From the IMG/VR virus record IMGVR_UViG_3300011888_000003: 20,000 bases of DNA. One strand, given 5' to 3'. Shown here one piece after another: positions 1-19,700 of the stretch. Origin of the DNA: an uncultured virus (IMG/VR IMGVR_UViG_3300011888_000003) (lineage: Duplodnaviria > Heunggongvirae > Uroviricota > Caudoviricetes). The notes beneath the pieces are model-generated. The model was not told the origin of the DNA and ran no database searches. It was given only the letters and a program-made list of their open reading frames with translations. The translations under genes were made by a program, and so were the position numbers. Within the stretch, counting starts at the first letter, position 1. The number at the start of each line of letters is the position of its first letter.

Positions 1-119
1 CTGAAATTCAACAGATGAAAGGTATGGCATTGGATATGAACGTTAATCTCAATGACAATACCGCAAAAATAACGAATAGCTGGATACAGCAAAAACTGAA
101 TGAGTCATTGAATCAGTAA
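1..119 (+). CDS. 3' end of upstream gene (partial), probably tape measure or other large tail protein
   Basis: Frame starting at base 3 is open: EIQQMKGMALDMNVNLNDNTAKITNSWIQQKLNESLNQ, stop TAA at 117-119. The product is inferred only from its position directly upstream of the hub gene. Confidence 0.55.
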   Translation, partial: EIQQMKGMALDMNVNLNDNTAKITNSWIQQKLNESLNQ

Positions 120-140: not shown

Positions 141-3100
141 ATGAGCGCGACAGAAGCGTTGATTGTATCACTACAAAAACCTGCCGAGGATAAACCTTGG
201 CGGGTGGTAATGTTAATCCAAGGAGAATTGTTGACGGCAACGAGCATCGGGGCTGGCGGGCAAACGCCTGCCGGTCCTCGTTTGCTTGAAGCCATTAATC
301 ACTTGGAACAACACATCAAAGGATACCCATTCGAATATGGCATGACGATGGTTGCTGACGGGACGAACCGCTTGCTTGCTGTGCGTTACATTGGCAAAGA
401 CATCGGTATGATGGAAGCAACGAAAAAGACCCTTCAATACATTAAGAAAAGTAAAGTCACACCACGAAACTTTAAAATTGATGAGAATGTCATGTTCTCT
501 GAGACCTTCAATGCGCAAGACTTCATGGAGACGGAAGAAGAGCCTGCTATGATGATGATGATGGCAGTCGCTGAAGGACCAGATGGCGGAGGGACACCAG
601 AAGAGACAGAACCACAAGAAATGGAAGAAAACATTGGTTCTCCTGACCAATTCTTACTGTATGGAGAAGTGGCGAGGGTCGTCGATGGTGATACCGCGAC
701 CATCAAGACTCTTGCCATGCATAAAAGTCTAAAAGGAAAAAAGATTGGAAAGTACTTAATGGATGTAAACGTCGAGTTCAATCTTCGTTTCATCGGTATT
801 GATAGTCCTGAGACACGTAAGCAAGGGAATGCCGCCATCTATGCTGATAAACAAAACTCTGCACTTGCGGCACTCTGGGGCGTAACGACAGATGTCGTGT
901 ATGATGTCGGAGAAGAAGCGAAACACACGACAGCGGCGATGATTACCCCTGGTACGGACAATGCTTATGTTCTCGTTGCATTACAATACGATAAAGTAAA
1001 AAATGTACCGCTTCATGATAATGGAGACGGACAACGTCCTCTTGGTGTCTTGTATCATGTCAAACCAAACAAAAAAGACAAAGATAAATACAAGACGACA
1101 AAAGAAGGACTCATCATCAATGTCGATGAATTCTTAAAGGCGATGTCAGAAGACAATGTCAAAGGAACGAACATCAATAAGACATTGCTCGGAAAACGAT
1201 ACTCAAAAGACCCACGTCTTCCTTTATATCAACACGATACATACAACAACAATAAATCAACCGAACAAGGCATCGATGTCATCACATGGGGTGATGAAGT
1301 CGGATATAAAGAGCCAAGTGATAGTTATTATAATGAGAAAGACCCGAAATCGACGACGACCGATGACATCTCAGAACAAGACAGCATCGATAAAGCAGAG
1401 ACATTGTATGAGAACAAATATAAAGAACCAGTCTCGAATGCACTTGATTTCGTCTTGCCATATGATGACCGTCTTGCTGATGAGAACGGTATCTATTCTC
1501 GTAGCATCAAGTTGTCAAAAGATGAAGATGCACTCGAAGAACCGTTCAACTATGTGTATAAAGTGCGTATCGGAGATGTCTTGATGACAGTCCCGCCGCT
1601 CTCGATTCAAATGTCACGTATTAGTCAGATTGAAAAGGTGAAGACACTTCGGACACAGACATCGATGATGAAGGGAGTCGGGAGTGCGAAGACGACGATT
1701 GAGCTGGAATTGTACTTCCACGGAATGGATGCCATCAACGGGAAAGAATGGGGTTCATATGAGATGGACGGAAAGACATATCCATTCTACATGGACGGTC
1801 TTCGGACACTCATCGCTCAGTTCAAGAAAGCACCTTTCTTGCCGATTGACAATAAATACATCAATGAAAGTCTGAACATTCACAATGTGGCATTGATGAA
1901 CTTGACGGTACAGACAGTCCCTGATTTCCCACAATCGTTAAAAGCAGTCTTGACACTCGCGAAGTTCGAACCAGAAGCGTTCATGATTGAGGAACCGAGT
2001 CTTTCGAACGTCATGAACTATCCATTGTTCCGTTGGTACTATCAGCAAGCACTTCGTAAGCCGGAAGACTATGAAATTCCGAACCGGATGTATTTAGAAA
2101 AAATCGAAGAGTTGACGAACGAGTTTAATTTCTTCATTGCTGACGAATCGAAATTGAAATACCGAATGGATGCCATCAATGAATTGTTCCGAATGGTTCG
2201 TCCTGAGGAGTATGAAAAACAAGTCAAAGAAAAAACGTCTGATAGTGGTCAATTGATTGAAGACGAGAACCGTGTCAAAAAAGTCCTGAAACAATATGAC
2301 ATCTATGAAGGATACCGAGAAGAAGACAAAAAGAAATTCAAAATCGGACCAGAATCCAAGGATGCGTGGGGACGAGAAGCTTATCAAGAAATGTATGAAG
2401 GAAGCATGCCAGTCTTTAAAGGTTCGGGCGCGAACTCATCGTTCGTCTCAAAGAGTTATGTCTTCTACCAATACTTCCTCGATAACTATTTCCTCGACAA
2501 CCCGAAATTCAAGGAATACTGGGAAAAAGTAGAAGGGGCAAAAACGCCTGGGTTCTTCATCATTGCCTTCAATAACCAAGAGAACGCAAAGAAAATTGAT
2601 GCACGTGCGGCATTGATGCTTGAAGGAAAACATAAAAAACGTTCTGATGGTAGTGCTTATTTCGTCATTCCAGCAACAAAAGCAAACATCAAGATTCTTG
2701 AATCGATGAAAGGTGCACGAGAAATGGTTGAAGGAGACGTGCAGACGTATGCCGAGAAGTATACGCAACTCCAAGACATCGTCGACTCGACCGAGCAATC
2801 AATTGCCATGGTGCCATATGACATTCCTGGATTGATTCCGACGTCCATCAATGTCATGTATGAGAATCAATTCTCTAGCATGCAGATGCAAATGCTTGAT
2901 TCTCCGACACTTCAATACATGGGAGGGCAAGACCCTTACATCCAGTTAATCTTTGAAGGGGACCAAAACACGGTCATGGCAGTGAACGAGATGCTTCTTG
3001 TCATTGAACGCTACAATCGTCAATATCGTCAAGGTATCGTTGCTGGTTTCATGGATGTCACGAATCCCCTTCTGAAAATGTTTGGGGTCAAGACACTGAT

Positions 3101-6100
3101 GCCAGAGAATGTCCAAATCAACACGGTTCCTGGCTTCCCTGACCGCTTCCAAATTGTCATGGCATTATGTGGCTTCGACCGCACACAGCGCCGTCAGGAA
3201 CGCTTAGATGGCATCAGCGGGGCATATGACGACACACGACTTCAAGATAGACGTGTTAATAACTACAGTGAAGAAAAAGATTATGCCATCATGGAATACC
3301 GGATGCGGGGCATGGAAGTTTATCCAGACCTAGAACTTCCGACATTCGAAGAATTGAATAAAGTCCTACCTTCACTCAAAGCAGGATTCGATACATACGA
3401 GAATCGAAGCGACCAAGTCTATGTCGACCCTGACTTCTATATCGGTTCACAAAAGACACTTCGTGACATGATTGCACAAGTCGTCAAGAAAGACAGTGAG
3501 TTCAAGGTCGTCGCCTATGACAACCGAGGATTGAAAACGACTTCAAAACTGAATGGTGTCGGATTCATCGACCCAGCAGAATCAAAGACGTTCGTCGATG
3601 CGTTCAATAGCCTAGACAAAGCCGTCGATTATGTACCTTCCGATTTCACATGGCAGAACGAAAAAGAGAAGGATTCGACGACGAGTGCGAAGTCAGAAGA
3701 GGATGCACTCGATAGTGTCGAACTTGAAGGAGACATCAAGGATTATGTAACCATCGGTGAAGATGGAAAAGCACCATATCAGAAATTGCCAGGATATGAG
3801 AACTGGAAAAAGTTCAGTGGCAATAAAGGTAAGTCAAAAGAAGAGTATGAGAAATGGAAAAAGAATCCTGATAAAAACCCACGAGAAGAAGTCGTCTGGT
3901 TCGCCATCATGCAAAAAATGATTGAAAAGATTGGTAGAAAATATCTAGAAGGTATGGACGACGACTTCAAGATGATTGCGAATGGATTAGAAGGAAAACA
4001 TAATCTACCTTCGGACATGACGAATGAAGACTGGTCTGACCGTTACCGTAAGAGTAATTGGCACAACGTCGGAGACATGATAATGAAGATAACGGACGGG
4101 AACTACGGCGCTACGACATTTATGCCAGATGACATCTATGGAAAGAGTATGTATCTTTACTACAAAGGACTTGCGGAAGAAGAAGACGACTACGAGAATT
4201 GGAAGAAGATTCCGAAGTCGGACTTGTCTTACATTAAATCGAGCGCGGAGTTCAAAGCATCTCCAATGTGGGCGTATAACGGGAAACGAACGAGTTGGGG
4301 TAACATCAGTAAAAACTTGTTCAATAACTATTATGACGGCTCCATCGTGCCGTATGATGATGACCCATTAAAAGGAGTCGTCAAGATTCCGCTTCATCGT
4401 ATGGGTGGTATCATCAAATCGATTGCAAAGTATCATTCACGTTGGACACCATTTGAAGGTGATGGTTCTGGTAAATTGACGGACGGATGGCGCGCGGGAC
4501 TCATGGGGTATCCTCTCGACATCGTCAAAGACAAAGCAGAAGCAGAGCGTTTGATGTATGACTGGAAATACAATCTTGAGAAATCGATGGAATTGCTCGC
4601 TAAGTATTACAAACATGCGTTCTCTCAAAAAGAATTACGGTACAAGGCGTTTGCAAGTGAATGGATGGTTTGGCAATATGGACTACCAAATCAAGACCGT
4701 GAAGATGACTTGTTGCCGATTGGGAAGAAATCGGATGCTTCTGAGGTCCTGATGCCGAATGCTTTGAAGCCTGCCATGGGTTATCGTAATGTCATCATGC
4801 GAGAATGGCGGACGACGTATGCGGCCGTTGATAAAGAAGCACCAGCTGGTATCTTCGCTGGAGGGAAAGGGCCTGTCGTCCCTGCCGTGTTTGCGATGTA
4901 TAACGGATTTGAAGGTAATACGATGGATGTCTTTACAGGAGATAAGGATGCCATCATCAAGAGTCTCGTCAATGACTTGTATTATCCGATGGATGCATAC
5001 AAAGTCAATGATGATAAGACGAAGATTGTCGCCGCTTACAAGAAAGAGAAGATGGCGTCCATAAAGGCAGAGACGAGAGCAAAACTTGAGAAGAAAAGTC
5101 GTAACGAGGTCGATTTGATTTTCTACAACCATCTCTCTCAACTGAAGAATGTCATCGGTAAAGGAGACAATGAAAAGAAATTTGCGGCGAGTGTGTTCGC
5201 AAGTATCTTGACCGGTATCGGAGCGGTGTTACTCGCATTGTTCGGAACGGTCACATATGGACTCGGTTTCCTTGCGGCAGGTGCACTTGGCATCGGAGCA
5301 GGAATGCTTAGTGATAGCGATAGTGATAAGATTGCGAACATGGCACCAAAAGCAAAAGAAATCATGGATGCCTACAATCAGATGGACGGGGCGAACGAAA
5401 CGCTTCAGAACAACCGTCTCGTCAATCGGAATACACCGCAAGAGAATCACTTCAACATGTATAAAGACATGTTAGAGTATGACATGCAAGGACGCATGGT
5501 CAGGGCGTTCCCGACCTTCCAGATGTTCATAGTCGACGAAGGAAAATGGATGGCGAACTATCGTATTTGGGACAACCTCTATGGATTCAATGCCATTCAA
5601 TCGATTGACATCTATCGTTCTCGTAAGATTGCGGCAGATACAGCGAACATCTCAATGACGAACATGTATTCGAACTTGAATGGTCGACGAACGGACATGA
5701 TGAATGCCCGTGTCCAGACACCAGCCTTCTGGTCGACGATTACATGGAGTCAGTACATTCTAGGAAAACCACCAGAAGAGTTGATTGAGACGCGGAAAGA
5801 ACTGTACAAAGCGATGTACTTACAAACAGGTGCACGGATTCATTTACGGATGGGGTATGGTTCGAACGTGACACGTCTTCCAATCGTCTTTAACGGAACG
5901 ATTACAGAGATGGATACAGGGGAAGTCGTCAACCTACTCTGTCAAGGAGACGGTATCGAGCTCTCGAACATGATTTCTGGTGACCCTGATGACGATAACT
6001 CATTCCTCCGTGTACAAGAGCCAGCGGAATCCATCGGACGATTACTCACTTCTAAGGGTGGAGCTTTTAAAGACCTCATCAACAATGCGACCGATGGTCA

Positions 6101-7865
6101 ATTCTTTAAAGATAACCCTCTAGGGGTTATGCACTTCGGAGCACCGGTCGAAGCACCGATGGGTAACTATGTTCCATTCAACCGTGACTTCGGGGAAGCC
6201 GCTCAAAACATCTATTGTGCGAATGGTGTCGCGACATTCGACCAGTGGAAGAACGAGAAAGGGGAAGACGTCAACTTCATGAGTGTCTTGCAAGACTTTG
6301 ACACCTATGGAAAAGTCGGCATCACAGACTTCTTACAGCCAGGGGATGAACCGAACATACGAGTCAAGTATTTCAATAATACGATATGGGATATCATTCA
6401 GACGTTTGCATTATGTTCGAGTGATTACATTGCGGCCGTTTTACCGTTTGAGATGCGCTCAACGCTCTTCTTCGGGAAACCGCACTGGAATGTTGCCTAC
6501 CGGTATGACTCGACCTACGCCTACGATGAATCCATCAAAGAGTGGACGAGAACGTATGACCTCGAACACCGGAAGCCGTACATGCAGATGCATGTCTACG
6601 GTAGCCAACATAACATCATCTCAAATAACATCAAAGCATCTGAAGAAGGCGTCTACACGAACGTCATCGCTAGTTATGATGGAAACGTCGCACCTATCGT
6701 ACAAGCAGATAACGATATTCGTTTGGATAAACAGAAGACGGTCGTCGTCGAAGCAGACATCGTCGGAAGCTTCCCAGGGATTGACTTCTGGACGAGTGAA
6801 GACCAGGCGACGAAATATGCACAATCTTCCGTACGTGATTACATGAAGGACATGTATAAAGGTCACTTGCTCGTCATCGGTGACCCGACGCTGAAACCAC
6901 ATGATGCGATGTACATGAATGATACGATGGTTGACATGAACGGGCTCATGCTCGTCAAAGCAGTCACGCACCACTTCTCGATTGAGACAGGGTTCGTCAG
7001 CTCGATTGAGCCAGATGCTTATGTCACGAACTGGGACATGGACATGCTGTATCACGGGAAGATGGCTTCTTCAATCGGAAAGAACATTGCGATTCTAGGG
7101 GCTTCTGCTGGTCTGACATATGTCAGTAAGCGGGTCATCATGGGGTCTGCCTTCTATCGCTGGATGGCAGAAGATGAAAACATCATGAAGGCGAAGTATC
7201 GAGAAGTCAGTAAAAAGGTCGGCGTTCGAAAGATGCTGAACTGGTCACTGAAGAACCGAGACTTACCTGTCGAAATCAAAGATGCCATCGAAGAATTGAA
7301 GAATGCGAAGACGAACAAAGAAGTCAAGGAAGCCTACCAGAAGGTCTCAGACCAACTGGACGTCCATAAAAAGACATTGAAGAATGCGAAGAAAGCGGGA
7401 CGAGAAGCAGAAGAACTGAAACGACTTGAAACAGAAATCGACCAGATGAAGCGTGTCGTTCAAATGGCGAAAAACAGTAACAGGGTCGCAACAGGTGTCA
7501 AAGCTGGTTCAGCAGTGTTCAAGACAGGACTCAATGTCGTCAAAGCGATTGGGATGTCGAACATCATCACGATTGCTTTACAGGTCGCATTCTCGGTCGC
7601 GACCGAAGGGCTGTTCGAGATGTGGCGTCGAAAGAAACAAAACACGCAATGTGTCACGATATTCCCACTGCAATATCGAGGAAGTGAACTCGTCGCCGGA
7701 ATCAACGGTCACCAAGGGGCCGTGTACGGAGACATTCCTTCGAAAGCAGACCTTGTCTATAAATCGAACTTCGGAGACGGGAACGAGAATAAGACATGGT
7801 ATGAATACCTGAGTGCGACAATGAACTTCTTCTCAGGAGATACTGGAGCGGCAGAAGAAAAATGA
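141..7865 (+). CDS. Giant multidomain baseplate hub/tail protein (SNase nuclease, two tube-like repeats, degenerate SLT, hydrophobic segments, gp27/gpD-like hub)
   Basis: 2574-aa ORF with a strong RBS. SNase motifs VARVVDGDT, LRFIGIDSPET and DGQRPLG (~660-1200). Repeated domain ending TVPDFP / TVPGFP (~1563-1970 and ~2823-3179). Hub-type motifs GARIHLRMGYGS...VFNGTITE...LCQGDG and VIGDPTLKPHD...VKAVTHHFS...GFVS (~5490-7020). Lies upstream of baseplate genes. Confidence 0.75.
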   Translation: MSATEALIVSLQKPAEDKPWRVVMLIQGELLTATSIGAGGQTPAGPRLLEAINHLEQHIKGYPFEYGMTMVADGTNRLLAVRYIGKDIGMMEATKKTLQYIKKSKVTPRNFKIDENVMFSETFNAQDFMETEEEPAMMMMMAVAEGPDGGGTPEETEPQEMEENIGSPDQFLLYGEVARVVDGDTATIKTLAMHKSLKGKKIGKYLMDVNVEFNLRFIGIDSPETRKQGNAAIYADKQNSALAALWGVTTDVVYDVGEEAKHTTAAMITPGTDNAYVLVALQYDKVKNVPLHDNGDGQRPLGVLYHVKPNKKDKDKYKTTKEGLIINVDEFLKAMSEDNVKGTNINKTLLGKRYSKDPRLPLYQHDTYNNNKSTEQGIDVITWGDEVGYKEPSDSYYNEKDPKSTTTDDISEQDSIDKAETLYENKYKEPVSNALDFVLPYDDRLADENGIYSRSIKLSKDEDALEEPFNYVYKVRIGDVLMTVPPLSIQMSRISQIEKVKTLRTQTSMMKGVGSAKTTIELELYFHGMDAINGKEWGSYEMDGKTYPFYMDGLRTLIAQFKKAPFLPIDNKYINESLNIHNVALMNLTVQTVPDFPQSLKAVLTLAKFEPEAFMIEEPSLSNVMNYPLFRWYYQQALRKPEDYEIPNRMYLEKIEELTNEFNFFIADESKLKYRMDAINELFRMVRPEEYEKQVKEKTSDSGQLIEDENRVKKVLKQYDIYEGYREEDKKKFKIGPESKDAWGREAYQEMYEGSMPVFKGSGANSSFVSKSYVFYQYFLDNYFLDNPKFKEYWEKVEGAKTPGFFIIAFNNQENAKKIDARAALMLEGKHKKRSDGSAYFVIPATKANIKILESMKGAREMVEGDVQTYAEKYTQLQDIVDSTEQSIAMVPYDIPGLIPTSINVMYENQFSSMQMQMLDSPTLQYMGGQDPYIQLIFEGDQNTVMAVNEMLLVIERYNRQYRQGIVAGFMDVTNPLLKMFGVKTLMPENVQINTVPGFPDRFQIVMALCGFDRTQRRQERLDGISGAYDDTRLQDRRVNNYSEEKDYAIMEYRMRGMEVYPDLELPTFEELNKVLPSLKAGFDTYENRSDQVYVDPDFYIGSQKTLRDMIAQVVKKDSEFKVVAYDNRGLKTTSKLNGVGFIDPAESKTFVDAFNSLDKAVDYVPSDFTWQNEKEKDSTTSAKSEEDALDSVELEGDIKDYVTIGEDGKAPYQKLPGYENWKKFSGNKGKSKEEYEKWKKNPDKNPREEVVWFAIMQKMIEKIGRKYLEGMDDDFKMIANGLEGKHNLPSDMTNEDWSDRYRKSNWHNVGDMIMKITDGNYGATTFMPDDIYGKSMYLYYKGLAEEEDDYENWKKIPKSDLSYIKSSAEFKASPMWAYNGKRTSWGNISKNLFNNYYDGSIVPYDDDPLKGVVKIPLHRMGGIIKSIAKYHSRWTPFEGDGSGKLTDGWRAGLMGYPLDIVKDKAEAERLMYDWKYNLEKSMELLAKYYKHAFSQKELRYKAFASEWMVWQYGLPNQDREDDLLPIGKKSDASEVLMPNALKPAMGYRNVIMREWRTTYAAVDKEAPAGIFAGGKGPVVPAVFAMYNGFEGNTMDVFTGDKDAIIKSLVNDLYYPMDAYKVNDDKTKIVAAYKKEKMASIKAETRAKLEKKSRNEVDLIFYNHLSQLKNVIGKGDNEKKFAASVFASILTGIGAVLLALFGTVTYGLGFLAAGALGIGAGMLSDSDSDKIANMAPKAKEIMDAYNQMDGANETLQNNRLVNRNTPQENHFNMYKDMLEYDMQGRMVRAFPTFQMFIVDEGKWMANYRIWDNLYGFNAIQSIDIYRSRKIAADTANISMTNMYSNLNGRRTDMMNARVQTPAFWSTITWSQYILGKPPEELIETRKELYKAMYLQTGARIHLRMGYGSNVTRLPIVFNGTITEMDTGEVVNLLCQGDGIELSNMISGDPDDDNSFLRVQEPAESIGRLLTSKGGAFKDLINNATDGQFFKDNPLGVMHFGAPVEAPMGNYVPFNRDFGEAAQNIYCANGVATFDQWKNEKGEDVNFMSVLQDFDTYGKVGITDFLQPGDEPNIRVKYFNNTIWDIIQTFALCSSDYIAAVLPFEMRSTLFFGKPHWNVAYRYDSTYAYDESIKEWTRTYDLEHRKPYMQMHVYGSQHNIISNNIKASEEGVYTNVIASYDGNVAPIVQADNDIRLDKQKTVVVEADIVGSFPGIDFWTSEDQATKYAQSSVRDYMKDMYKGHLLVIGDPTLKPHDAMYMNDTMVDMNGLMLVKAVTHHFSIETGFVSSIEPDAYVTNWDMDMLYHGKMASSIGKNIAILGASAGLTYVSKRVIMGSAFYRWMAEDENIMKAKYREVSKKVGVRKMLNWSLKNRDLPVEIKDAIEELKNAKTNKEVKEAYQKVSDQLDVHKKTLKNAKKAGREAEELKRLETEIDQMKRVVQMAKNSNRVATGVKAGSAVFKTGLNVVKAIGMSNIITIALQVAFSVATEGLFEMWRRKKQNTQCVTIFPLQYRGSELVAGINGHQGAVYGDIPSKADLVYKSNFGDGNENKTWYEYLSATMNFFSGDTGAAEEK

Positions 7866-7940: not shown

Positions 7941-9047
7941 ATGGCAAAGGAAAAGAAGAAAAAAGAGAGTATCATCGAAGTTGCGATGGACGCTCTTGAG
8001 CGAAAAAAGAAATCCTATGAAAAACAAGTCTTTGAAGCCAAAAGCTTCTATGAACGTAAACTAGAGTTTGCGGAAACATTTAAAATTCCTGGTTATGATT
8101 ATGGGGACGATGACGATGAAAGTTCAGACTCGGATTCTTCTGGTGTCGGGACAGGGGCAGATGTCGAAATGGGAACGAAATATGATAAAGAAATCAATGC
8201 GGCGGCAAAGAAGTATGGACTCAATCCTTATTTCATTGCAAGCATCATCAAGCAAGAATCAAACTTTGACCCGAATGCAGGGTCTGGTGTGGGCGCACGA
8301 GGACTGATGCAGTTGATGCCAGCGACGGCGGCAAGTCTAGGTGTTAAGAATGTAACAGACCCAGCAGATAATGTCATGGGTGGGACGAAATACATCAAAC
8401 AAATGCTCGATGGACAAGGGGGCGACCCAAAACTTGCACTCGCGGCATACAATGCAGGGCCTGGTAACGTTGCAAAATATGGCGGTGTACCACCTTTTGA
8501 AGAAACACAAAACTATGTCATCAAGATTCCAGGGTATTTCAAAGAATATACAGGAAAGACACTGGATAAAAAAACGGTCAAATGGCAAGGTCCGATGTCT
8601 TCAGGTGGAAGTGGAAGTGGAGGGGCAACAGTCAAAGGAGCGGCAAAAGACTTCATCAATAAATGGCAGGTGACGGCAGACTTCCCACGTTATCCTGACG
8701 GTAGTTATCACTCAGGAATAGACTTTGCTGGTGGAGGGATTGCCGGTACAAAGATTCCTTGTTTCCATGCAGGGACGGTCTTCGTCAAATCATTCATGGG
8801 GAACGGCTATGGAAACTATGTCGTCATCAAGACACCTGATAACCATTATCACTACTATGCGCATATGACGAATGTATATGTCAGTCAAGGAGACAAAGTC
8901 AAGGTCGACCAAATCATCGGAACCGTGGGGACGACAGGAAGAAGCACAGGGCCGCACTTGCATTATGAGGTTCGCCCAAGTAATAACAAGTACAGTGATG
9001 CATTGAATCCGCATAAGTTCTTAAAAGGAACGAATAAAGGAGTGTAA
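7941..9047 (+). CDS. Lytic transglycosylase (SLT) plus M23 endopeptidase; probable virion-associated peptidoglycan hydrolase
   Basis: SLT motifs IIKQESNF, GARGLMQLMP, ALAAYNAGPG and ETQNYV. Gly/Ser linker. M23 motifs HSGID, YAHM and STGPHLHYEV. RBS GAGGGG upstream. Confidence 0.92.
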   Translation: MAKEKKKKESIIEVAMDALERKKKSYEKQVFEAKSFYERKLEFAETFKIPGYDYGDDDDESSDSDSSGVGTGADVEMGTKYDKEINAAAKKYGLNPYFIASIIKQESNFDPNAGSGVGARGLMQLMPATAASLGVKNVTDPADNVMGGTKYIKQMLDGQGGDPKLALAAYNAGPGNVAKYGGVPPFEETQNYVIKIPGYFKEYTGKTLDKKTVKWQGPMSSGGSGSGGATVKGAAKDFINKWQVTADFPRYPDGSYHSGIDFAGGGIAGTKIPCFHAGTVFVKSFMGNGYGNYVVIKTPDNHYHYYAHMTNVYVSQGDKVKVDQIIGTVGTTGRSTGPHLHYEVRPSNNKYSDALNPHKFLKGTNKGV

Positions 9048-9716: not shown

Positions 9717-10079
9717 ATGGCAAGTAATCCATTGGTCGATACCATCATATCAAAAGCCGTCATGCCGATGATTGATAAGCAAGCAAAAACGGTCAAAGGT
9801 ACGATTTACAGCGTTGACTACAAAATACGCAAAGCAGATGTTGTCTACTTTGAACCAAAGACAGGCGTTCGTCGTTTCAAAAAAGGTGTTGATTTTCCAG
9901 AAGACATGCAAGGATTTGTCGCGAAATCACTGGAATGCGGAGATGAAGTCGAAGTCTCGTTTCGGAACAATTCATACAAAGAAGGCTTCATCAGTAAAGT
10001 GATTGTCAAAGAGAAATCATTCGAAGACCTGAAAGTGGATAAAGGAAAAAAGATGCCACGGGCGACAGATTTGTTTTAA
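9717..10079 (+). CDS. Small baseplate protein, probable gp5/gpV N-terminal OB-fold (spike base)
   Basis: 120 aa. VKGTIYSVDY...ADVVY...LECGDEVEVSF resembles the spike OB-fold pattern. Lies between hub and gp25-like genes. RBS GGAGG. Confidence 0.5.
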   Translation: MASNPLVDTIISKAVMPMIDKQAKTVKGTIYSVDYKIRKADVVYFEPKTGVRRFKKGVDFPEDMQGFVAKSLECGDEVEVSFRNNSYKEGFISKVIVKEKSFEDLKVDKGKKMPRATDLF

Positions 10080-10544: not shown

Positions 10545-11037
10545 TTTCAAGTTCTCCCCTGAAGGAGACTTGGTGCTAGGTGACCAGATGGTCAATGCAG
10601 AGGGTCTTCCACTCTATCGGGATATGGCACGTTCAGAAGGATACACGACAGAAGTCTCTGAGACAAGTGTGCCGATTCGTGACGTAGGCACAGCATTTGG
10701 GGATGAGGTCGATATGCAGACTATCTTGAACCGCATGCGGACAGACAATCCTGATTGGTTGTTGCATGAAGACATCGGGGCAAACTTAAGTGACTTGATT
10801 GGAGAACCCAATACAAAGACAACGATGTTGAAAGGAATTGAAAACATCACGAATGCTTTATTGTATGATGGAACGTTCCAGTCGACAGAAATCGAAGTTG
10901 TAGGTGCACCGTATGGTATGCAGGAAATCTTATTCTTTGTCCGATTAAAGCGAAAAGGAAGACAAGAAGTTCGAATCCCTTTACTCTTTAATCTAGAGCA
11001 AGGACTAGTCAATGAATATGAGGTGGAAGAAGAATGA
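10534..11037 (+). CDS. gp25/gpW-like baseplate wedge protein
   Basis: 167 aa. DFKFSPEGDL...QTILNRMRT...WLLHEDIGANLSDLIG...ITNALLYD fits the gp25/XkdS-like pattern. Directly precedes the baseplate-J-like gene. Confidence 0.75.
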   Translation: MKIDFKFSPEGDLVLGDQMVNAEGLPLYRDMARSEGYTTEVSETSVPIRDVGTAFGDEVDMQTILNRMRTDNPDWLLHEDIGANLSDLIGEPNTKTTMLKGIENITNALLYDGTFQSTEIEVVGAPYGMQEILFFVRLKRKGRQEVRIPLLFNLEQGLVNEYEVEEE

Positions 11038-11840
11038 TTGTAAAATCACAAACAGAAATGATAGAAAGGATACTAGGCTCCGTTCAAGCTCGAATTGGTG
11101 TCAACGCAACCGGTGCTGGGACCATCATGCAAACATTCACAGAGGTCAGCAGCGTCGAAGAGTTTTATGACTTCTATGAACAACTGGATGTCTTGAACAT
11201 GATGGCGTTCCTGTCGACAAGCTCAGGCGTTTACGTGGATTTAATCGGAGAACTCTTATCTTGTCCACGTGAAGCGATGGAAGATGATGCGACATACAAA
11301 GAACGTATCCGAAAACAAGTCTATACCGTAGCAGGAGCAAACTTGACGGCGATTCGATTAAAAGCATTGAACGTATCAGGTGTAGCAGACATTGACATAC
11401 AAGAATATACGAATGGGCCTGGGTCGTTCACCTGTTATGTATACGGTGACGGTACACAGTCGGATGCGCTCATCGTTGAAAACGTGCGCAATGCGATTGA
11501 GTCTGTTAAAGCATATGGAATTGAAATCAGTGTGAAGACTCCTTTACGTATTGGTATTGATATCGGGGTTCAAGTCATCTTCAAGGAAGGCGTCGGCGCC
11601 GCTGAACAAAAATTCATCCGAGAAGAAGTAGGCGACCGCATCCAAAAATACATCAATCAACTCTCTAAAGGAGAGGGCCTTGTCTTAAATGAAATCATCG
11701 AACAAGTAATGGTGACGGATGATAAGATACTGGATTGTGAAATTGACCTGCTTCGTATCGATGGAAAAGACCGTTTCATTGGGAACATAAACATAGGAGC
11801 AAATGAAATCTTAGGAATTCAGACAATAGAGGTGGGATAA
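11034..11840 (+). CDS. Baseplate J-like (gp6/gpJ) wedge protein, short form
   Basis: FLSTSSGVYVDLIG, EDDATYKERI, ALNVSGVAD, GPGSFTCYV, VKAYGI and YINQLSKGE are typical Baseplate_J segments. ATGA overlap with the previous gene. Confidence 0.85.
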   Translation: MIVKSQTEMIERILGSVQARIGVNATGAGTIMQTFTEVSSVEEFYDFYEQLDVLNMMAFLSTSSGVYVDLIGELLSCPREAMEDDATYKERIRKQVYTVAGANLTAIRLKALNVSGVADIDIQEYTNGPGSFTCYVYGDGTQSDALIVENVRNAIESVKAYGIEISVKTPLRIGIDIGVQVIFKEGVGAAEQKFIREEVGDRIQKYINQLSKGEGLVLNEIIEQVMVTDDKILDCEIDLLRIDGKDRFIGNINIGANEILGIQTIEVG

Positions 11841-14549: not shown

Positions 14550-16766
14550 ATGGCGGCAATTCGTCCAGAAGGACTTTCTCCTTGTTTCGAAAGTGTACTC
14601 AGTCCTTACATCCCTTCTTCTTACTTTTTTGAATGGGATTACCGGAAAGAAACAAGTAGTGATAAACAAACAAAAGCAGACATACGATGGTATGAGATGG
14701 AGTCTGATGAACCAGTTCTTTTAAAATCAAAGACCATCACTGGAACAAAAACATCTGTAACGTATCTTGATTCAGGTTTGTCCTTGGATTCAGGTTCGAC
14801 ATATGCATGGCAAGTGCGTACATACAATAGTAAAAACGAAGTCAGTCAATGGTCAGAGCTTGCAACCTTCCTTTTTGATGATGTTATCTTGAAGATGCCT
14901 NNNNNNNNNNNNNNNNNNNNNNNNNNNNNNNNNNNNNNNNNNNNNNNNNNNNNNNNNNNNNNNNNNNNNNNNNNNNNNNNNNNNNNNNNNNNNNNNNNNN
15001 NNNNNATCATCTCCGACTACGTCGGGCAAGGTGTGGAAGATGAAGAAGAGTACATGGATAAGGTCGAAGAACTGTTTACAGGAAAAGTAGTGCCTTCACG
15101 GAAAGACTTCACGACACTTCGTGATGCGATTAACTTTGTGGCGGTGAAGAAGGAAATCATGTCACCGTTTGATGTCATCGGTCCAATTAAGAATGGACTC
15201 GGGGCAAGTGACATGCAACTCATTCATGGCTTCTTGCTTTCGATGGCAAGCAACCCACCACAAGCGCCACGAGGAGTGAGCATCACGGCAAAAATCCCAA
15301 CGATTCAAGATGTTGCTTCCATCTCAGGAAGCACGAAAGGAACGGGAGATACGACCGTTGAAGTCGAGTGGGATGTAGAAGAATATGATGAGACGACAGG
15401 AAAGGTGAACTTCACGAGACTCTCAACATCTGAAGATATCTCGTACTATGAAGTCATTTTCCAGTATGGTGTTGACGGGAACATGGTCGAACATGTCATC
15501 TATTATCGCCCTGAAGACTTAGTAAGTATGGGGAACGGGTTCGAGTTCAGCACGAACTGGAACCGTATCTTTACGACAAGCAATATCGCAAATGCGAAAC
15601 ATGCGGTCTATGTCCGAGCAGTTGATGTCCGAGGGAATCAGTCGACATATTATAATGTTGCAAAAACATATGGTGGTTCTACAAAGATTCCACTTGGTGT
15701 CCGTGCTTATAATATGCAATACCAAAAAGACACGGATGCGTCGACGAAATGGTACTCAGTCGCTGGAATCAAAGAGTTCACGAAGACAAATTACAGTCAC
15801 AATCTTGGTCAGAATAAATTCAAAGTTCGGTATCGGATTCAGACGATTGACAAGACAGGATTGCTCGGTTCATGGGTCACAAGCTCATGGATTGATTTCC
15901 GAGGACTCGTTCCACCTGGTCCACCGAAGAACTTAAAATATACATCGACATATAACAGTTTCAAAGTCACATGGCAAGCGGGGACATATGCCACATCTTA
16001 TGAATTACGAGTCGATGACAGTGGCGTTAAATCTGAAAAAGATTTGAATTATACATCCGTCGATAAAAAGGCGAATACCTATTATACCTTCTATGTACGT
16101 TCTGTTAATGCAGTTGGTAAGAGTGCGTACGTTTCCATCAAAGTCAAGACGAAGCTTCCACCGACGGCGACGAAAACATACGGTGTCACGGCAAGTGGTC
16201 GAAGTTGGCGGACAGACTATAAGAGTTACGGAGGCATCGTCAAAGGGTCTTCCGGTTGGCGCATGGAGACAAGTGATGTTATCCAAGGGCGATGGGAATA
16301 CCTTGAGAATACTTATGATGACTGGGACATGGACGGAAAGAAAGATGACTACGTCTATAAGGGGATGCACAACGGAAACCATAAAGGACTCTGGTTCCCT
16401 GATTATGCAAAAATCCGAAGTGACTTGAAAGGCAAAAAGATTAAGACCGTTCAGGTATACGTGAGCCGAGAAAGCTCACAACATGGTTATCCGAAGGATG
16501 CGACGCCTATCTACTTATGGTTGCATAACTATGCATCAAGACCAAGTGGAGAACCGACGCTTTTCAATGAGTTCAAGTTCCCAAAATACTTAGACCGAGG
16601 ACAAAGCGCTTGGGTGACGATACCGACGTCAATGTTCCAAAAAATCATCGACGGTCAAGCACGAGGTTTCGGAGTTTATAAAAAGAATATCGGCGGAGCT
16701 TATGACGTTAGTTATCAGCGCTTCGATAGTAAGATTCAAATCAAAGTCACATATTACAATTATTAA
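14550..16766 (+). CDS. Fibronectin type III repeat tail protein, probable receptor-binding protein (spans a 105-N gap)
   Basis: FN3 signatures LDSGSTYAWQVRTYN...SQWS and PPGPPKNL...FKVTW...YYTFYVRSVNAVGKS. C-terminal domain QGRW...NHKGLWF...HNYASRPSGEP resembles Bacillota phage adsorption-protein C-termini. Continuity across 14901-15005 is assumed. Confidence 0.7.
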   Translation: MAAIRPEGLSPCFESVLSPYIPSSYFFEWDYRKETSSDKQTKADIRWYEMESDEPVLLKSKTITGTKTSVTYLDSGLSLDSGSTYAWQVRTYNSKNEVSQWSELATFLFDDVILKMPXXXXXXXXXXXXXXXXXXXXXXXXXXXXXXXXXXXIISDYVGQGVEDEEEYMDKVEELFTGKVVPSRKDFTTLRDAINFVAVKKEIMSPFDVIGPIKNGLGASDMQLIHGFLLSMASNPPQAPRGVSITAKIPTIQDVASISGSTKGTGDTTVEVEWDVEEYDETTGKVNFTRLSTSEDISYYEVIFQYGVDGNMVEHVIYYRPEDLVSMGNGFEFSTNWNRIFTTSNIANAKHAVYVRAVDVRGNQSTYYNVAKTYGGSTKIPLGVRAYNMQYQKDTDASTKWYSVAGIKEFTKTNYSHNLGQNKFKVRYRIQTIDKTGLLGSWVTSSWIDFRGLVPPGPPKNLKYTSTYNSFKVTWQAGTYATSYELRVDDSGVKSEKDLNYTSVDKKANTYYTFYVRSVNAVGKSAYVSIKVKTKLPPTATKTYGVTASGRSWRTDYKSYGGIVKGSSGWRMETSDVIQGRWEYLENTYDDWDMDGKKDDYVYKGMHNGNHKGLWFPDYAKIRSDLKGKKIKTVQVYVSRESSQHGYPKDATPIYLWLHNYASRPSGEPTLFNEFKFPKYLDRGQSAWVTIPTSMFQKIIDGQARGFGVYKKNIGGAYDVSYQRFDSKIQIKVTYYNY
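14901..15005. other. Assembly gap (105 N)
   Basis: Run of N in the sequence. Confidence 0.99.
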
Positions 16767-16785: not shown

Positions 16786-19700
16786 ATGGCTCAGTATGGA
16801 AAAACCTTCTATGGTAATAGTTACTACGGGAACATCACGGCGTTCTCATCGACGTACATATCAAAAGCGTTTGACGCGGAGGAACCATTCACTGGGCCAA
16901 TCACCGTCTCTTTGGATGCTGTCTTGACGCGCCAGACTTATCGGGCGCAAGATGCAGAACTTCGAAAGGTCGGTGCTTGGTCTGTATCAGGTACGACATT
17001 GCGAACGACAGAAGTCGGCGCAACCATCAGCATGAACATGGGTGCATCTCGTGCGAAATTATTATTCACAAAACAAAGTGACGTCAATCAAACGTTCGAA
17101 CTAAAGATTGCGACACCAACAGGAACCGTTCTCCATACACAAAGTATCTCAACGACAGGTTCAGGAAATGGGAGCTATGAGTCTCCTATCTTCGACTATC
17201 AAGAAGTCATCGTCACTGTCACGGCAAAAACAGGTGGCGGAACATTCATCTTCCAAGGCATCGAAGCAGTCGTCACCGATGTGAAAGTAGAAGCGGGAGC
17301 TGGAACATCAACGACGAATATGACATATTCTCCGATTACATTAACGTATGCAAATGGTGTTTACACGGGAACGACGCCAAGCGTTGCGAACAAGCGATAT
17401 GTACGATTCAAGATTCATCTCGCTTCCTCTGATGATGATGCATCACCTGTCGTCAAATACATGGAGATGCGTTCAGGAGATGTCACGACACGAGCAGAGG
17501 ATGGATACTGGCGAGCAAGCATCAACATGGAGAATGTAGCACAAGCCAAAAGCAAGACGTTCAAAGAAGTTGTTGCTTTCGATTGGGTCGAGAATAAACC
17601 AGCGGCAACAGAAATCGATTACCGTTCCCGTGGTGCAGTCAGTGCAGGTTCAACGAACCTTGGAGCAGAGACAGCGGTCTATCGTAAAGGATATAAACGA
17701 TTGCGATTACCAGAAGGTATCACGGAAGGCTATATCGTGACAAAAAAACGAGTAGACCCACGTGAGTATTTGGGGACAAACTTGAATCGAATCAAACAAT
17801 GGCTTGATATGAATACATTGCTGTCGATGCCAACAGAAGAACTTGGACAAGAGATTGAAATCTCATTCTATGATGTCTATCCTTCAGCAGACAATGCCGA
17901 CATCACACCAGTAATCACGTTCAATCCGACAGAGGAAGAATCGACACGAGCACTCGCTTTATTTAATACGGCAGAAGTCGGTCTGTTCTACATCATGATT
18001 CGACTGAAGCGTCTATCAACGAAAGGGACACCGGTCGTTGACTGGATGAGTTTCGAATCAGAAATGGAATTCAAACAATCGATTAGTCCGACAGGTCTTG
18101 ATATTTCTGCCATTGATAATGGGACGGGTATCAAACTATTGAAGACATTGACAGGGACAGAGTTTTCATGGCCGACGAATGCCAATGCAAACGCTGTGAA
18201 CACGTCTGCTTTATCTCGTGCAAAGAAAGACTTATTGCTTTTGGATGAGACGAATCAGTATGGTCTGACGCTTTACTTCAAATCAAAAGAAGCGGCGACA
18301 CAAGGGCGTAATACGACGAATACGTTGACAGATGCCATTTGGGGAAAACTCGTTGCTGAAGATGCACCTTCGACGTCGACGGCACTCGACCCGAAAAAAC
18401 CTTATTTCCATTATCACTACAATGGAAGCACAGTACAGTATCTCATCAAAGACAAGCATGAGATGGGAACGGACTATACACCAGCATTGATTCAAGATAA
18501 AAAGTATCGCTACCGCATCATCAATGGACGACCAGATTCCTTCANNNNNNNNNNGCAAGTCACACGACCGATGACATGGGCAGAAGTGGCAGAAATCTTC
18601 AACGTCACGGTGACGGCATTAAAAGCCGTAAACCCTGGGAAGCTCGAATACGAAGGAAAACTCGTCGTCGGACAATCCATAAAGGAGCCGAACACGACGA
18701 AGAACACGAACGTTTCTCTGATATTCGAAGGAAAGTCCACGGTCACTGATGTCAGTCCTCACAATAAAAATGGTACGAGTGTCATCGTTGCCGAATTATT
18801 GACAGGAAACTATGGCTTCACGGAGTGGCGCTCTGAACAACGTATCTACACAGGATACTTGAACGTCAATGATTTACGTAGTCCTTATCAACGGGAACAA
18901 ATCAATAGTACGATTGTCGCCGGAGAGTCACAATATACGGTACTTGCCGGAGATACATATGCAAGTATTGCAAAGAAGAAGAGCGTTAACGTCATCGATT
19001 TACAACGTCTGAATAATGATGTGCCACTTGTCACAGGAAATCGCATTCGTGTGCCATCACCGTTGACGTTGCCGATTCTTGCTCCAGAAGTCATCTTTAC
19101 GGATGAAGCAGGTAATGCGCTTGATAATCCATATAAGATTACCATCATCGACAACTCGGTGAAGAAAAAAGACGGNNNNNNNNNNCGGTGGAGGAAAAAG
19201 ACGTAAACATCATCGACACGAACTTGGTCACGGTCGGCTCAGGAACGAAGCCAGGTATGCGTTATGATATCCAGGAGTCTGCACCTGTCTCTGTTAAAAT
19301 CACACGAGGAGCGATTGCGAACGGACGTGACCTTTTAGAACATAAGAACGTCAATCGTATCATCTCCATTGTAGATACGAACGGGGTCTCATATTCGAAG
19401 TATACGGATATCGGTGGAATCAAGACAGGTGATTATGTGATGGAAGGGAACTATGTCTCGTGGGTAGGACAACAGCAGTCGTCGAAAGAGCCTGCCGCTG
19501 GTGTCGAATACACCGTGACCTATACCTATAATCAAATCAAAAAAGTATACCTGACAATGGATTCCACTTACGTCGAAAAAGCAGGGTATGACATTCTGTG
19601 GCGTTCACCTGAAGTCAAAGAATATGAAGGCGTCGCGCGCCCAGATAGTGATTTCAAAATCAAGATTGCGGCACCTGAAAGCTTTGAAGGATATACAACA

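What the first reader, a model, noticed from the sequence alone, without database searches (positions are those of the whole stretch)
660..1200. Apparently active thermonuclease (SNase) domain fused to a phage baseplate hub protein
Seen: near the N-terminus of the 2574-aa protein are VVDGDT, LRFIGIDSPET and DGQRPLG. Established: these correspond to the staphylococcal nuclease Ca-binding and catalytic residues D19/D21, R35, D40, E43 and R87, and all appear retained. Inference: a nuclease carried on the tail hub is analogous to an effector-extended VgrG. It could be delivered at infection (attacking host DNA/RNA or defence nucleic acids) or displayed outside to cut biofilm eDNA. I know of no characterised example of this fusion.
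Basis: partly seen in the sequence, partly recalled or inferred. Interest (0 to 1): 0.85.

Follow-up and report, generated by a model that had tools for sequence, protein, structure and literature searches.

The report
Nuclease domain on phage tail hub
The giant tail-tip (baseplate hub) protein of this jumbo phage carries a genuine staphylococcal-type nuclease domain with an intact active site, but this arrangement is normal for its phage lineage, was noted in print in 2007, and its job has never been tested.

Summary
ORF 141..7865 (2574 aa) carries VVDGDT, LRFIGIDSPET and DGQRPLG. These map onto SNase D19/D21, R35, D40, E43 and R87.

The protein alone misses Pfam SNase (E 0.08). A 21-sequence profile of the domain from giant relatives hits 251 PDB SNase sequences (best E 5.6e-6). 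An AlphaFold model (pLDDT 86) superposes on SNase at Z 12.4, rmsd 2.5 Å, 130 of 137 residues.

The host protein is the gp27/gpD-type hub of a Bacillus phage 0305phi8-36-lineage jumbo myophage. It sits between the tape-measure gene and a gpV-like spike gene.

The fusion is not new. Hardies et al. 2007 (PMC2147016) described it for prophage BtI1. Of 120 hub homologues listed, 105 carry the domain, and several NCBI/JGI records are already named "thermonuclease family".

New here:
- The five core catalytic residues are intact in 82 of 106 homologues, this one included.
- They have decayed in 22 of 106, needing at least 7 changes on the tree, while the fold is kept.
- 3 of 19 decayed hubs scanned carry a second nuclease module.

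So nuclease activity looks selected for but dispensable. Whether it acts outside the cell or is injected remains untested. Earlier reports of this scan reached the same reading on other DNA.

The parts
3..119 (+). C-terminal 38 aa of the upstream gene: the tape-measure protein homologue
   Evidence: Its end (…MNVNLNDNTAKITNSWIQQKL…) lines up by eye with the C-termini of KLEB27-3 gp034, WH1 gp095 and 0305phi8-36 gp146, the 'hypothetical tape measure protein'. No score was computed.
141..7865 (+). Giant baseplate hub gene (2574 aa, P0001)
   Evidence: tblastn: 36% identity over 97% to KLEB27-3 gp035 'putative baseplate protein'; 28% over 45% to 0305phi8-36 ORF147 'baseplate hub protein', E 2e-58. 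phrog_20474 at E 1.8e-218.
141..545 (+). N-terminal domain of unknown function (aa 1 to ~135)
   Evidence: For 8 of the 15 homologues without an SNase profile hit, BLAST aligns part of their N-terminus (58-106 residues) to this region. No Pfam or PHROG match. It corresponds to the 'functionally unidentified N-terminal domain' of Hardies 2007.
531..635 (+). Acidic, Met/Gly-rich linker (aa ~131-165)
   Evidence: Read directly from the translation. Poorly conserved among relatives.
645..1322 (+). SNase-fold domain (aa ~169-394), about 90 residues longer than S. aureus nuclease because of insertions
   Evidence: Model pLDDT 86.2. VIA-align Z 12.4, rmsd 2.5 A, model 9-233 vs SNase 6-141. Foldseek: 49 of the top 50 are SNase variants and 1 is Tudor-SN. 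Profile against PDB, E 5.6e-6.
684..695 (+). D182-G-D184-T185, equivalent to SNase D19-G20-D21-T22
   Evidence: Invariant in alignment A2. Aligned to SNase chain positions 19-22.
786..812 (+). R216 … D221-S-P-E224, equivalent to SNase R35 … D40-T41-P42-E43
   Evidence: R and E are invariant in A2. Aligned to SNase 35-43. The D40 position is D in only 45 of 106 homologues (N 23, Q 16, E 11).
1035..1037 (+). R299, equivalent to SNase R87
   Evidence: Invariant in A2. Aligned to the R of …YGR… in SNase.
5175..5312 (+). Hydrophobic Gly/Ala-rich segment (aa 1679-1724) just before the hub core
   Evidence: Kyte-Doolittle 19-residue window, maximum 2.23.
5478..7130 (+). Conserved hub core (aa 1780-2330), gp27 / P2 gpD / Mu gp44-like
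   Evidence: 305 homologues at E<=1e-5. Protein-atlas features: all ten nearest named clusters are Mu gp44/gpP or XkdQ-type baseplate hub proteins, score 0.97; a lead only. Hardies 2007 assigned the homologous part of gp147 to T4 gp27 domains 1 and 3. No direct HMMER hit to PDB.
7530..7619 (+). Second hydrophobic segment (aa 2464-2493) near the C-terminus
   Evidence: Kyte-Doolittle maximum 1.71.
7941..9047 (+). Separate tail-lysin gene: SLT lytic transglycosylase plus Peptidase_M23
   Evidence: Pfam PF01464 at 4.6e-30 and PF01551 at 1.7e-25. In 0305phi8-36 the SLT, NlpC/P60 and M23 domains lie inside the hub protein itself.
9717..10079 (+). P2 gpV-like spike homologue (120 aa)
   Evidence: BLASTP against 0305phi8-36 ORF148 'P2 gpV-like protein': 29% identity over 100 aa, E 4e-10.
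11034..11840 (+). Baseplate J-like wedge protein
   Evidence: Pfam PF04865 at 2.7e-17; phrog_6 baseplate wedge.

Best explanation
Identity (shown, about 0.95). Residues ~169-394 of the 2574-aa hub protein are a true staphylococcal-nuclease-family domain, enlarged by insertions. All six Ca-binding/catalytic residues are in place: D182, D184, R216, D221, E224, R299. The domain is an optional cassette between a conserved N-terminal domain and the body of a gp27/gpD-type baseplate hub of a 0305phi8-36-lineage jumbo myophage. Activity (inferred, about 0.65). The domain is a working Ca2+-dependent, sugar-non-specific nuclease carried on the virion tail tip in three copies, if the hub is trimeric like T4 gp27. 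Mode of action (inferred, about 0.4, the most likely single option). It is an accessory enzyme that works outside the cytoplasm, in the Ca2+-rich matrix and wall zone, during adsorption and penetration. It cuts extracellular or wall-associated DNA/RNA that hinders access. It acts alongside the SLT+M23 tail lysin encoded next door, much as depolymerases and tail lysins clear other barriers. It also serves as a structural block of the hub, which is why the fold persists in lineages where catalysis has decayed. The confidence given (0.4) is for the whole statement including the mode of action.
For: Fold and homology. Residue mapping. Hub identity and synteny (tape measure, hub, lysin, gpV-like, gpJ-like): and Hardies 2007. 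Selection for catalysis: the five core residues D,D,R,E,R are intact in 82 of 106 aligned homologues, although these share only ~25% identity in the domain. The window's 10-member clade is entirely intact. Nucleic acid as the substrate: of 19 hubs with a decayed SNase scaffold that were scanned, P0070 and P0073 carry a second, canonical SNase with intact motifs, and P0097 carries a DNA/RNA non-specific endonuclease domain (PF13930, 4.4e-22). Accessory character: the domain is missing from 15 of 120 homologues. Ten are full-length proteins lacking it outright, four look truncated, and one (P0112) keeps a decayed remnant. On a FastTree tree of the hub core (121 rows), presence/absence needs at least 7 changes and active-site decay at least 7. 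Extracellular action: canonical SNase needs millimolar Ca2+ and is a secreted enzyme (established knowledge, recalled). The stand-alone relative P0023 begins with a signal-peptide-like stretch. In relatives the same hub carries wall hydrolases.
Against: There is no biochemical, mass-spectrometry or structural evidence for this protein or any homologue. The GenBank note for 0305phi8-36 ORF147 lacks the 'identified by mass spectrometry' remark that its neighbours have. The protein alone is below Pfam's SNase threshold. The family-specific positions G219, K347, Y305, N239 and E259 are better conserved (94-104 of 106) than the catalytic R, E and R (83-85 of 106). 22 of 106 homologues are clear pseudo-enzymes. 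A structural role could therefore be the primary one. The SNase Y85 position is Gly here. Nothing shows that the N-terminal region is exposed on the virion rather than buried in the baseplate. Two hydrophobic segments flank the hub core, which would fit ejection into the membrane and delivery inward instead.
Confidence: 0.4

Rival explanations
1. Injected effector. The hub is expelled from the tail tip at infection. Its hydrophobic segments insert in the membrane. The nuclease then reaches the cytoplasm and attacks host DNA/RNA or defence nucleic acids.
For: Hub and spike proteins sit at the membrane-piercing tip (T4 gp27/gp5; Hardies 2007). Gly/Ala-rich hydrophobic segments lie at aa 1679-1724 and 2464-2493. 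Replacement of decayed SNase by other non-specific nucleases fits a 'weapon' as well as it fits a matrix enzyme. T6SS VgrG/PAAR-nuclease fusions are a precedent (recalled, not tested here).
Against: Canonical SNase needs far more Ca2+ than bacterial cytoplasm offers (recalled). A non-specific nuclease entering just ahead of the phage genome would endanger that genome, and no immunity or inhibitor gene is evident in the window. The domain is lost or decayed in 37 of 121 homologues, with many changes on the tree. That is unusual for a key take-over factor.
Confidence: 0.2
2. Chiefly a structural or assembly module. The SNase OB-fold is a building block or nucleic-acid/ligand-binding spacer of the hub, and the catalytic residues in this protein are a not-yet-eroded legacy.
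For: 22 of 106 homologues keep a well-aligned fold with 2 or more of the 5 core residues replaced. Non-catalytic family positions are more conserved than catalytic ones. Catalytically dead SNase folds are used as scaffolds in Tudor-SN, which appears at rank 45.
Against: All six residues are intact here and in all ten members of the window's clade. 82 of 106 homologues are intact across deep divergence. 3 of 19 decayed lineages regained a nuclease module. Ten full-length homologues do without the domain altogether, so it is not structurally essential.
Confidence: 0.15
3. A phosphodiesterase retargeted to a wall polymer. The enlarged SNase domain cleaves the phosphodiester backbone of teichoic acids of the Gram-positive host rather than nucleic acid, and so opens the wall for the tail lysin.
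For: The hub's other cargo in relatives is always wall-directed (SLT, NlpC/P60, M23, amidase). The D40 position is variable (D in 45 of 106), the Y85 equivalent is not kept, and large insertions flank the active site.
Against: No SNase-family teichoicase is known to me (recalled). The modules that replace decayed scaffolds are a canonical SNase and a DNA/RNA non-specific endonuclease, which points to nucleic acid.
Confidence: 0.06

Closest known systems
BtI1 / BwK1 prophage-like homologues of 0305phi8-36 gp147 (Hardies, Thomas & Serwer 2007, Virol J 4:97, PMC2147016)
   Same: A giant 'hyperplastic' gp27-type hub with an unidentified N-terminal domain followed by a staphylococcal-nuclease domain. 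Peptidoglycan hydrolases are encoded in separate genes just downstream (passages read). This is the same architecture and gene order as here.
   Different: Those sequences were not compared directly here, because they are not in the collections I could fetch by name. The paper calls the nuclease's purpose 'not obvious' and reports no test.
Bacillus phage vB_BceM_WH1 gp094 and Bacillus phage vB_BauM_KLEB27-3 gp035
   Same: Full-length homologues (36% identity over 87-97%) with the SNase-like domain at the same place (A2-profile E 4e-51 and 1.9e-54). WH1 gp094 passes Pfam PF00565 (25.9 bits against a cut-off of 21). The flanking genes are the same.
   Different: They are about 250 aa shorter. 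They are annotated only as 'virion structural protein' or 'putative baseplate protein'. No paper on either phage was found in the library.
Bacillus phage 0305phi8-36 gp147 (baseplate hub)
   Same: Homologous body and hub core (E 2e-58), with the same position after the tape-measure gene and before the gpV-like gene.
   Different: It has no SNase domain (profile E>10). Instead it has an N-terminal SLT and C-terminal NlpC/P60 plus M23 domains inside the hub.
Staphylococcus aureus nuclease A (SNase, thermonuclease; Pfam PF00565)
   Same: Same fold (Z 12.4, rmsd 2.5 A, 130 of 137 residues, ~20% identity). The same D19, D21, R35, D40, E43 and R87 set.
   Different: SNase is a free secreted 149-aa enzyme. 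Here the domain is about 226 aa, with an enlarged hairpin, an extra helix after the E43 position and a low-confidence 35-residue loop. It is embedded in a 2574-aa virion protein. The Y85 equivalent is Gly.
Effector-extended ('evolved') VgrG / PAAR spikes of type VI secretion systems (recalled)
   Same: An enzymatic domain, sometimes a nuclease, is fused to a component of the contractile-tail tip complex that is homologous to gp27/gp5.
   Different: In T6SS the effector is usually C-terminal, is delivered into a rival cell and is paired with an immunity gene. Here it is N-proximal, no immunity gene is seen, and delivery is unproven.

Membership tests
Staphylococcal nuclease family (PF00565, SNase / thermonuclease) | OB-fold barrel plus three helices of SNase | tested here: met
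   AF2 model pLDDT 86.2. VIA-align Z 12.4, rmsd 2.5 A, 130 of 137 residues, whole chain 6-141 covered; 298 chains at Z>=8. Foldseek probability 1.00.
Staphylococcal nuclease family (PF00565, SNase / thermonuclease) | Sequence-profile homology to SNase | tested here: met
   The profile of 21 hub domains hits 251 PDB SNase sequences, best E 5.6e-6. 15 of 21 members hit PF00565 at E<=1, best 1.5e-6. The homologue WH1 gp094 is above the Pfam cut-off. The window's sequence on its own is below it: 13.8 bits against 21, E 0.08.
Staphylococcal nuclease family (PF00565, SNase / thermonuclease) | Ca2+ ligands and catalytic residues (D19, D21, R35, D40, E43, R87) | tested here: met
   D182, D184, R216, D221, E224 and R299 occupy the aligned columns. 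Their spatial convergence in the model could not be measured, because no coordinates are available.
Staphylococcal nuclease family (PF00565, SNase / thermonuclease) | Ca2+-dependent hydrolysis of DNA and RNA to 3'-phosphates | not testable with these tools
   This needs an enzyme assay.
gp27 / P2 gpD / Mu gp44 baseplate hub family (0305phi8-36 gp147 subfamily) | Homology to a recognised hub protein | tested here: met
   tblastn to 0305phi8-36 ORF147 'baseplate hub protein', E 2e-58, and to Acinetobacter phage ME3 'baseplate hub protein', E 2e-12. The gp147-to-gp27 link itself rests on Hardies 2007 (HHsearch/SAM).
gp27 / P2 gpD / Mu gp44 baseplate hub family (0305phi8-36 gp147 subfamily) | Direct match of the core to a solved gp27/gpD/gp44 structure or Pfam hub model | tested here: inconclusive
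   No Pfam or NCBIfam hit. The 5-sequence core profile finds nothing in PDB at E<=10. Protein-atlas features put the core next to Mu gp44/gpP-type hub clusters at 0.97, which is a lead only.
gp27 / P2 gpD / Mu gp44 baseplate hub family (0305phi8-36 gp147 subfamily) | Gene position between the tape measure and the spike/baseplate wedge genes | tested here: met
   The upstream ORF end resembles, by eye, the tape-measure C-termini of three relatives. Downstream lie a gpV-like gene (E 4e-10) and Baseplate_J.
gp27 / P2 gpD / Mu gp44 baseplate hub family (0305phi8-36 gp147 subfamily) | Presence in the virion at the tail tip | not testable with these tools
   This needs virion mass spectrometry or cryo-EM. 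The GenBank note for 0305phi8-36 ORF147 has no mass-spectrometry remark.
Effector-extended VgrG-like delivery (functional analogy, not homology of the effector) | Translocation of the fused enzyme into the target cell | not testable with these tools
   The only indirect hints are the hydrophobic segments.

The most novel reading that the evidence does not exclude
The hub-borne nuclease is a first-strike effector. It is expelled from the tail tip with the hub, threaded through the envelope by the flanking hydrophobic segments, and cuts host or defence nucleic acids before or as the phage genome enters. This would be a phage counterpart of nuclease-tipped VgrG spikes. The repeated decay, deletion and replacement of the module across the lineage would then reflect an arms race with host inhibitors.
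Probability: 0.15. Interest if true: 0.75.

Novelty: new member of a known kind. Interest (0 to 1): 0.3.

Why it matters
Virion-borne enzymes are normally wall or capsule hydrolases. A nuclease at the tail tip of a whole lineage of jumbo phages of Firmicutes is an unexplained and untested feature, first noted in 2007. If it clears extracellular DNA, it would be a natural anti-biofilm device. If it is injected, it would be a new kind of phage effector. This window adds one more intact example, so it does not open the question anew.

The survey done here sharpens the question. The activity is conserved in about three quarters of hubs, decayed or deleted many times, and replaced by a second nuclease in 3 of the 19 decayed hubs scanned. 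That argues for a real, nucleic-acid-directed but conditionally dispensable function. It also points to natural 'dead' and 'deleted' variants as ready-made controls.

Tried and rejected
**Searches that gave nothing**
- Pfam and NCBIfam on the whole protein: no family.
- Pfam on the domain alone: only E 0.08.
- phmmer of the domain against PDB: a chance phosphatase hit only.
- The 4-sequence profile against PDB: E 0.64 only.
- The first AF2 model, from 4 sequences: pLDDT 42, unusable.
- Megablast of 3.9 kb against phage records: no match.
- Viral-contig scan with the N-terminal 520 aa: no relative.
- The window's own genome is not held.
- Hub-core profile against PDB: no hit.
- PHROGs on the domain: only a weak endonuclease family, E 0.01.

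**Literature searches**
- 'KLEB27-3', 'vB_BceM_WH1' and 'thermonuclease + jumbo phage': 0 papers each.
- 'thermonuclease + baseplate': 1 listing. I judged it unrelated from the title and abstract start only.
- Searches returned reviews, judged irrelevant from the listings only.

**Readings rejected**
- That the 2574-aa protein is the tape measure. The tape-measure homologue ends at nt 119, and the core resembles hub families.
- That the motifs are a chance resemblance.

**Rows dropped**
- Of the 20 hits, P0020 was left out of alignment A2 as a 428-aa repeat protein with 6 short stretches. P0023 was left out as a 174-aa stand-alone SNase-like protein, so that the profile would stay free of canonical nucleases.
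- P0115, P0116 and P0118 were left out of the Pfam scan of decayed members because of the size limit.
- Four short, probably truncated proteins (P0037, P0113, P0121, P0126) and P0112 (a decayed remnant) were excluded from the count of clean deletions.
Full report
**1. What is in the sequence**

The window opens with the last 38 codons of a gene (3..119), followed by a strong Shine-Dalgarno (AGGAGG, 129-134). Next comes a 7,725-nt ORF, 141..7865, encoding 2574 aa.

- VVDGDT at aa 180-185 (nt 678-695)
- LRFIGIDSPET at aa 215-225 (nt 783-815)
- DGQRPLG at aa 296-302 (nt 1026-1046)

**2. Is it an SNase domain?**

Single-sequence searches are weak.
- Pfam finds nothing on the whole protein.
- On aa 161-400 alone, Pfam gives PF00565 at E 0.08, 13.8 bits against a cut-off of 21.
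- phmmer against PDB gives only a chance hit.

The word-indexed search found three close relatives. A profile of these four, run over 1.84 billion representatives, found 20 proteins at E<=0.001. Sixteen of them are giant proteins of 1589-2630 aa with the match at the same N-proximal place.

I aligned the domain from the window, the three close relatives and 17 of those 20 hits to make A2, with 21 rows. P0020, a repeat protein, was dropped. P0023, a 174-aa stand-alone SNase-like protein, was kept out on purpose. In A2, D22, G23, D24, T25, R56, G59, E64, N79, E99 and R139 of the domain are invariant. In protein numbering these are D182, G183, D184, T185, R216, G219, E224, N239, E259 and R299.

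This profile hits 251 distinct PDB sequences at E<=1, and all 60 shown are staphylococcal nuclease or thermonuclease. The best E-value is 5.6e-6. The match falls in three collinear blocks that put:
- DGDT on SNase 19-22
- R…D.PE on SNase 35-43
- EA on E57-A58
- the invariant R on R87

15 of the 21 members hit PF00565 at E<=1, best 1.5e-6.

With A2 as input, AlphaFold gives pLDDT 86.2 and pTM 0.86. With four sequences it had given pLDDT 42.
- Foldseek against PDB returns SNase variants in 49 of the top 50 rows and human Tudor-SN in one, with probability 1.00 and best E 4e-4.
- VIA-align gives Z 12.4, rmsd 2.5 Å, 130 of 137 residues and ~20% identity. The match covers SNase 6-141 and model residues 9-233.
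- In the viral model library the best matches are an unnamed 1160-aa piece (E 8.6e-12) and then nucleases or 'TNase-like' proteins. They include a 'Baseplate hub protein' of an uncultured phage.

The domain is therefore a true SNase homologue spanning aa ~169-394 (nt ~645-1322). It is about 90 residues longer than SNase because of three features seen:
- a longer first hairpin
- an extra helix after the E43 position
- a 35-residue loop of low confidence (pLDDT 57-69)

**3. What protein carries it?**

tblastn against 50,697 phage records finds 8 records, two of them duplicate entries of the same phage:
- Bacillus phage KLEB27-3 gp035, 'putative baseplate protein' (36% identity over 97%)
- Bacillus phages WH1 gp094 and Edson (36% over 87%)
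- Moorella phage MTATph1
- Bacillus phage 0305phi8-36 ORF147, 'baseplate hub protein' (E 2e-58)
- Acinetobacter phage ME3, 'baseplate hub protein' (E 2e-12)

All are 177-235 kb phages.

Gene order is shared with these relatives.
- The upstream ORF end resembles, by eye, the C-termini of KLEB27-3 gp034, WH1 gp095 and the 0305phi8-36 tape-measure gp146.
- Downstream lie an SLT+Peptidase_M23 lysin at 7941..9047, a homologue of the P2 gpV-like gp148 at 9717..10079 (E 4e-10), and a Baseplate_J protein at 11034..11840.

Hardies et al. 2007 assigned gp147 to the T4 gp27 / P2 gpD hub family by HMM comparison. I could not reproduce a direct structural link. The protein-atlas feature search places aa 1780-2330 beside Mu gp44/gpP and XkdQ-type hub clusters at 0.97, which is a lead only.

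**4. Is the fusion new?**

No. [quoted passage not shown] A search with the hub core (aa 1780-2330) finds 305 proteins at E<=1e-5. Among the 120 listed, several are already named:
- 'thermonuclease family protein' in Bacillus subtilis and B. mycoides
- 'nuclease' in Priestia and Cytobacillus
- 'endonuclease YncB (thermonuclease family)' in ten JGI entries

WH1 gp094 passes Pfam's SNase threshold.

Seven literature searches found no experimental study of such a hub nuclease. Earlier reports of this scan on other genomes reached the same conclusion. I had reached the paper independently.

**5. Survey of the lineage (the new part)**

An HMM of A2 finds the domain in 105 of the 120 listed hub homologues. 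It also finds it in KLEB27-3 and WH1, but not in 0305phi8-36 or the Moorella phage.

Of the 15 homologues without the domain:
- four look truncated
- one (P0112) keeps a decayed remnant
- ten are full-length proteins of 2089-2251 aa without the cassette
- for eight of the 15, BLAST also aligns part of the N-terminal domain

Among the 106 aligned domains, the window included:

| Residue set | Count of 106 |
|---|---|
| D,D,R,E,R all intact | 82 |
| All six canonical residues, as in this window | 45 |
| 2 or more of the five replaced | 22 |
| One of the five replaced | 2 |

The D40 position reads D 45, N 23, Q 16, E 11 and other 11.

The 22 decayed members are well aligned in the surrounding blocks, so they are genuine pseudo-enzymes rather than alignment errors. 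Family-specific positions are better conserved than the catalytic ones. G219 is kept in 104, K347 in 100, Y305 in 98, N239 in 95 and E259 in 94 of 106. The catalytic R, E and R are kept in 83-85.

I built a FastTree tree of the hub core with 121 rows and 552 columns.
- Decay needs at least 7 changes. It needs 9 when counted against all other states, and 8 are forced by well-supported branches.
- Clean absence needs at least 7 changes.
- Such counts cannot tell gain from loss.
- The window sits in a 10-member clade that is entirely intact. Its sister is a 33-member clade with 19 decayed members.

I scanned 19 of the 22 decayed hubs with Pfam.
- Two (P0070, P0073) carry a second, canonical SNase at aa ~585-692, with E 7e-16 and 4.5e-17 and intact DGDT / R..DTPE / R motifs.
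- One (P0097) carries a DNA/RNA non-specific endonuclease domain at aa 169-297, E 4.4e-22.
- Two carry wall hydrolases.
- Fourteen show nothing further.

**6. Reading**

Shown:
- It is a real SNase-family domain with a complete catalytic set.
- It sits in the hub protein of a 0305phi8-36-type jumbo phage.
- It is an optional cassette of that hub family.

Inferred:
- The conservation of catalytic residues across ~25% identity, and the re-acquisition of nuclease modules where the scaffold has decayed, argue that nuclease activity on nucleic acid is selected for.
- The many decays and deletions argue that it is accessory, like a depolymerase, and not part of the core injection machine.
- The persistence of dead domains argues for an added structural role.

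SNase chemistry needs millimolar Ca2+ and the family is typically secreted (recalled knowledge). The hub's other cargo in relatives is wall hydrolases. I therefore favour action outside the cytoplasm, on extracellular or wall-associated nucleic acid during adsorption and penetration (about 0.4).

The rivals are:
- The injected-effector model (about 0.2). The two hydrophobic segments flanking the hub core keep it alive.
- A mainly structural role (about 0.15).
- A retargeted teichoic-acid phosphodiesterase (about 0.06).

None can be settled without experiments.

**7. Verdict**

This window is a new member of a known kind. Interest is modest at 0.3. The open functional question is real but does not depend on this window.

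Noticed in passing
window 7941-9047 (+): The wall hydrolases lie inside the hub protein of 0305phi8-36 (SLT at the N-terminus, NlpC/P60 and M23 at the C-terminus). Here they form a separate two-domain gene (SLT plus Peptidase_M23) directly after the hub. Enzymatic modules evidently shuttle between the hub and its neighbour gene, as Hardies 2007 proposed.
   Followed up: partly
proteins P0070, P0073, P0097 (homologues, not in the window): Three hubs have a decayed ancestral SNase scaffold plus a second nuclease. In two it is a canonical SNase at aa ~585-692. In one it is an Endonuclea_NS_2 domain at aa 169-297. This looks like replacement of a lost activity by a fresh module.
   Followed up: partly
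window 5175-5312 and 7530-7619 (+): Two Gly/Ala-rich hydrophobic stretches (aa 1679-1724 and 2464-2493) bracket the conserved hub core. They resemble the membrane-seeking segments of tape-measure or ejection proteins. Their conservation across the family was not checked.
   Followed up: no
window 531-635 (+): An acidic linker with a run of five Met (…EEEPAMMMMMAVAEGPDGGG…) joins the N-terminal domain to the nuclease domain. It varies in length and composition even among close relatives.
   Followed up: no
window 1071-1112 (+), aa ~311-324: A 14-residue Lys-rich insertion lies in the low-confidence loop of the nuclease domain. It is present only in the window's protein and its 92%-identical relative P0002 and is absent from P0003/P0004.
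   Followed up: no
window 16786-19206 (+): An 806-aa protein in the baseplate/fibre block has a LysM peptidoglycan-binding domain near its C-terminus (aa 717-757, E 1.6e-7). Hardies 2007 marks LysM domains in a BtI1 gene of this region.
   Followed up: no
window 14550-16766 (+) and 19188-20000 (+): A 738-aa protein carries Ig-like and FN3 domains. The start of a DUF4815 protein runs off the window. Both are probably fibre or baseplate periphery proteins.
   Followed up: no
window 141-545 (+): The N-terminal ~135-aa domain is kept in at least part of the homologues that lack the nuclease cassette (BLAST aligns 58-106 residues in 8 of 15). It has no match in Pfam or PHROGs, and its function has been unknown since 2007.
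   Followed up: partly
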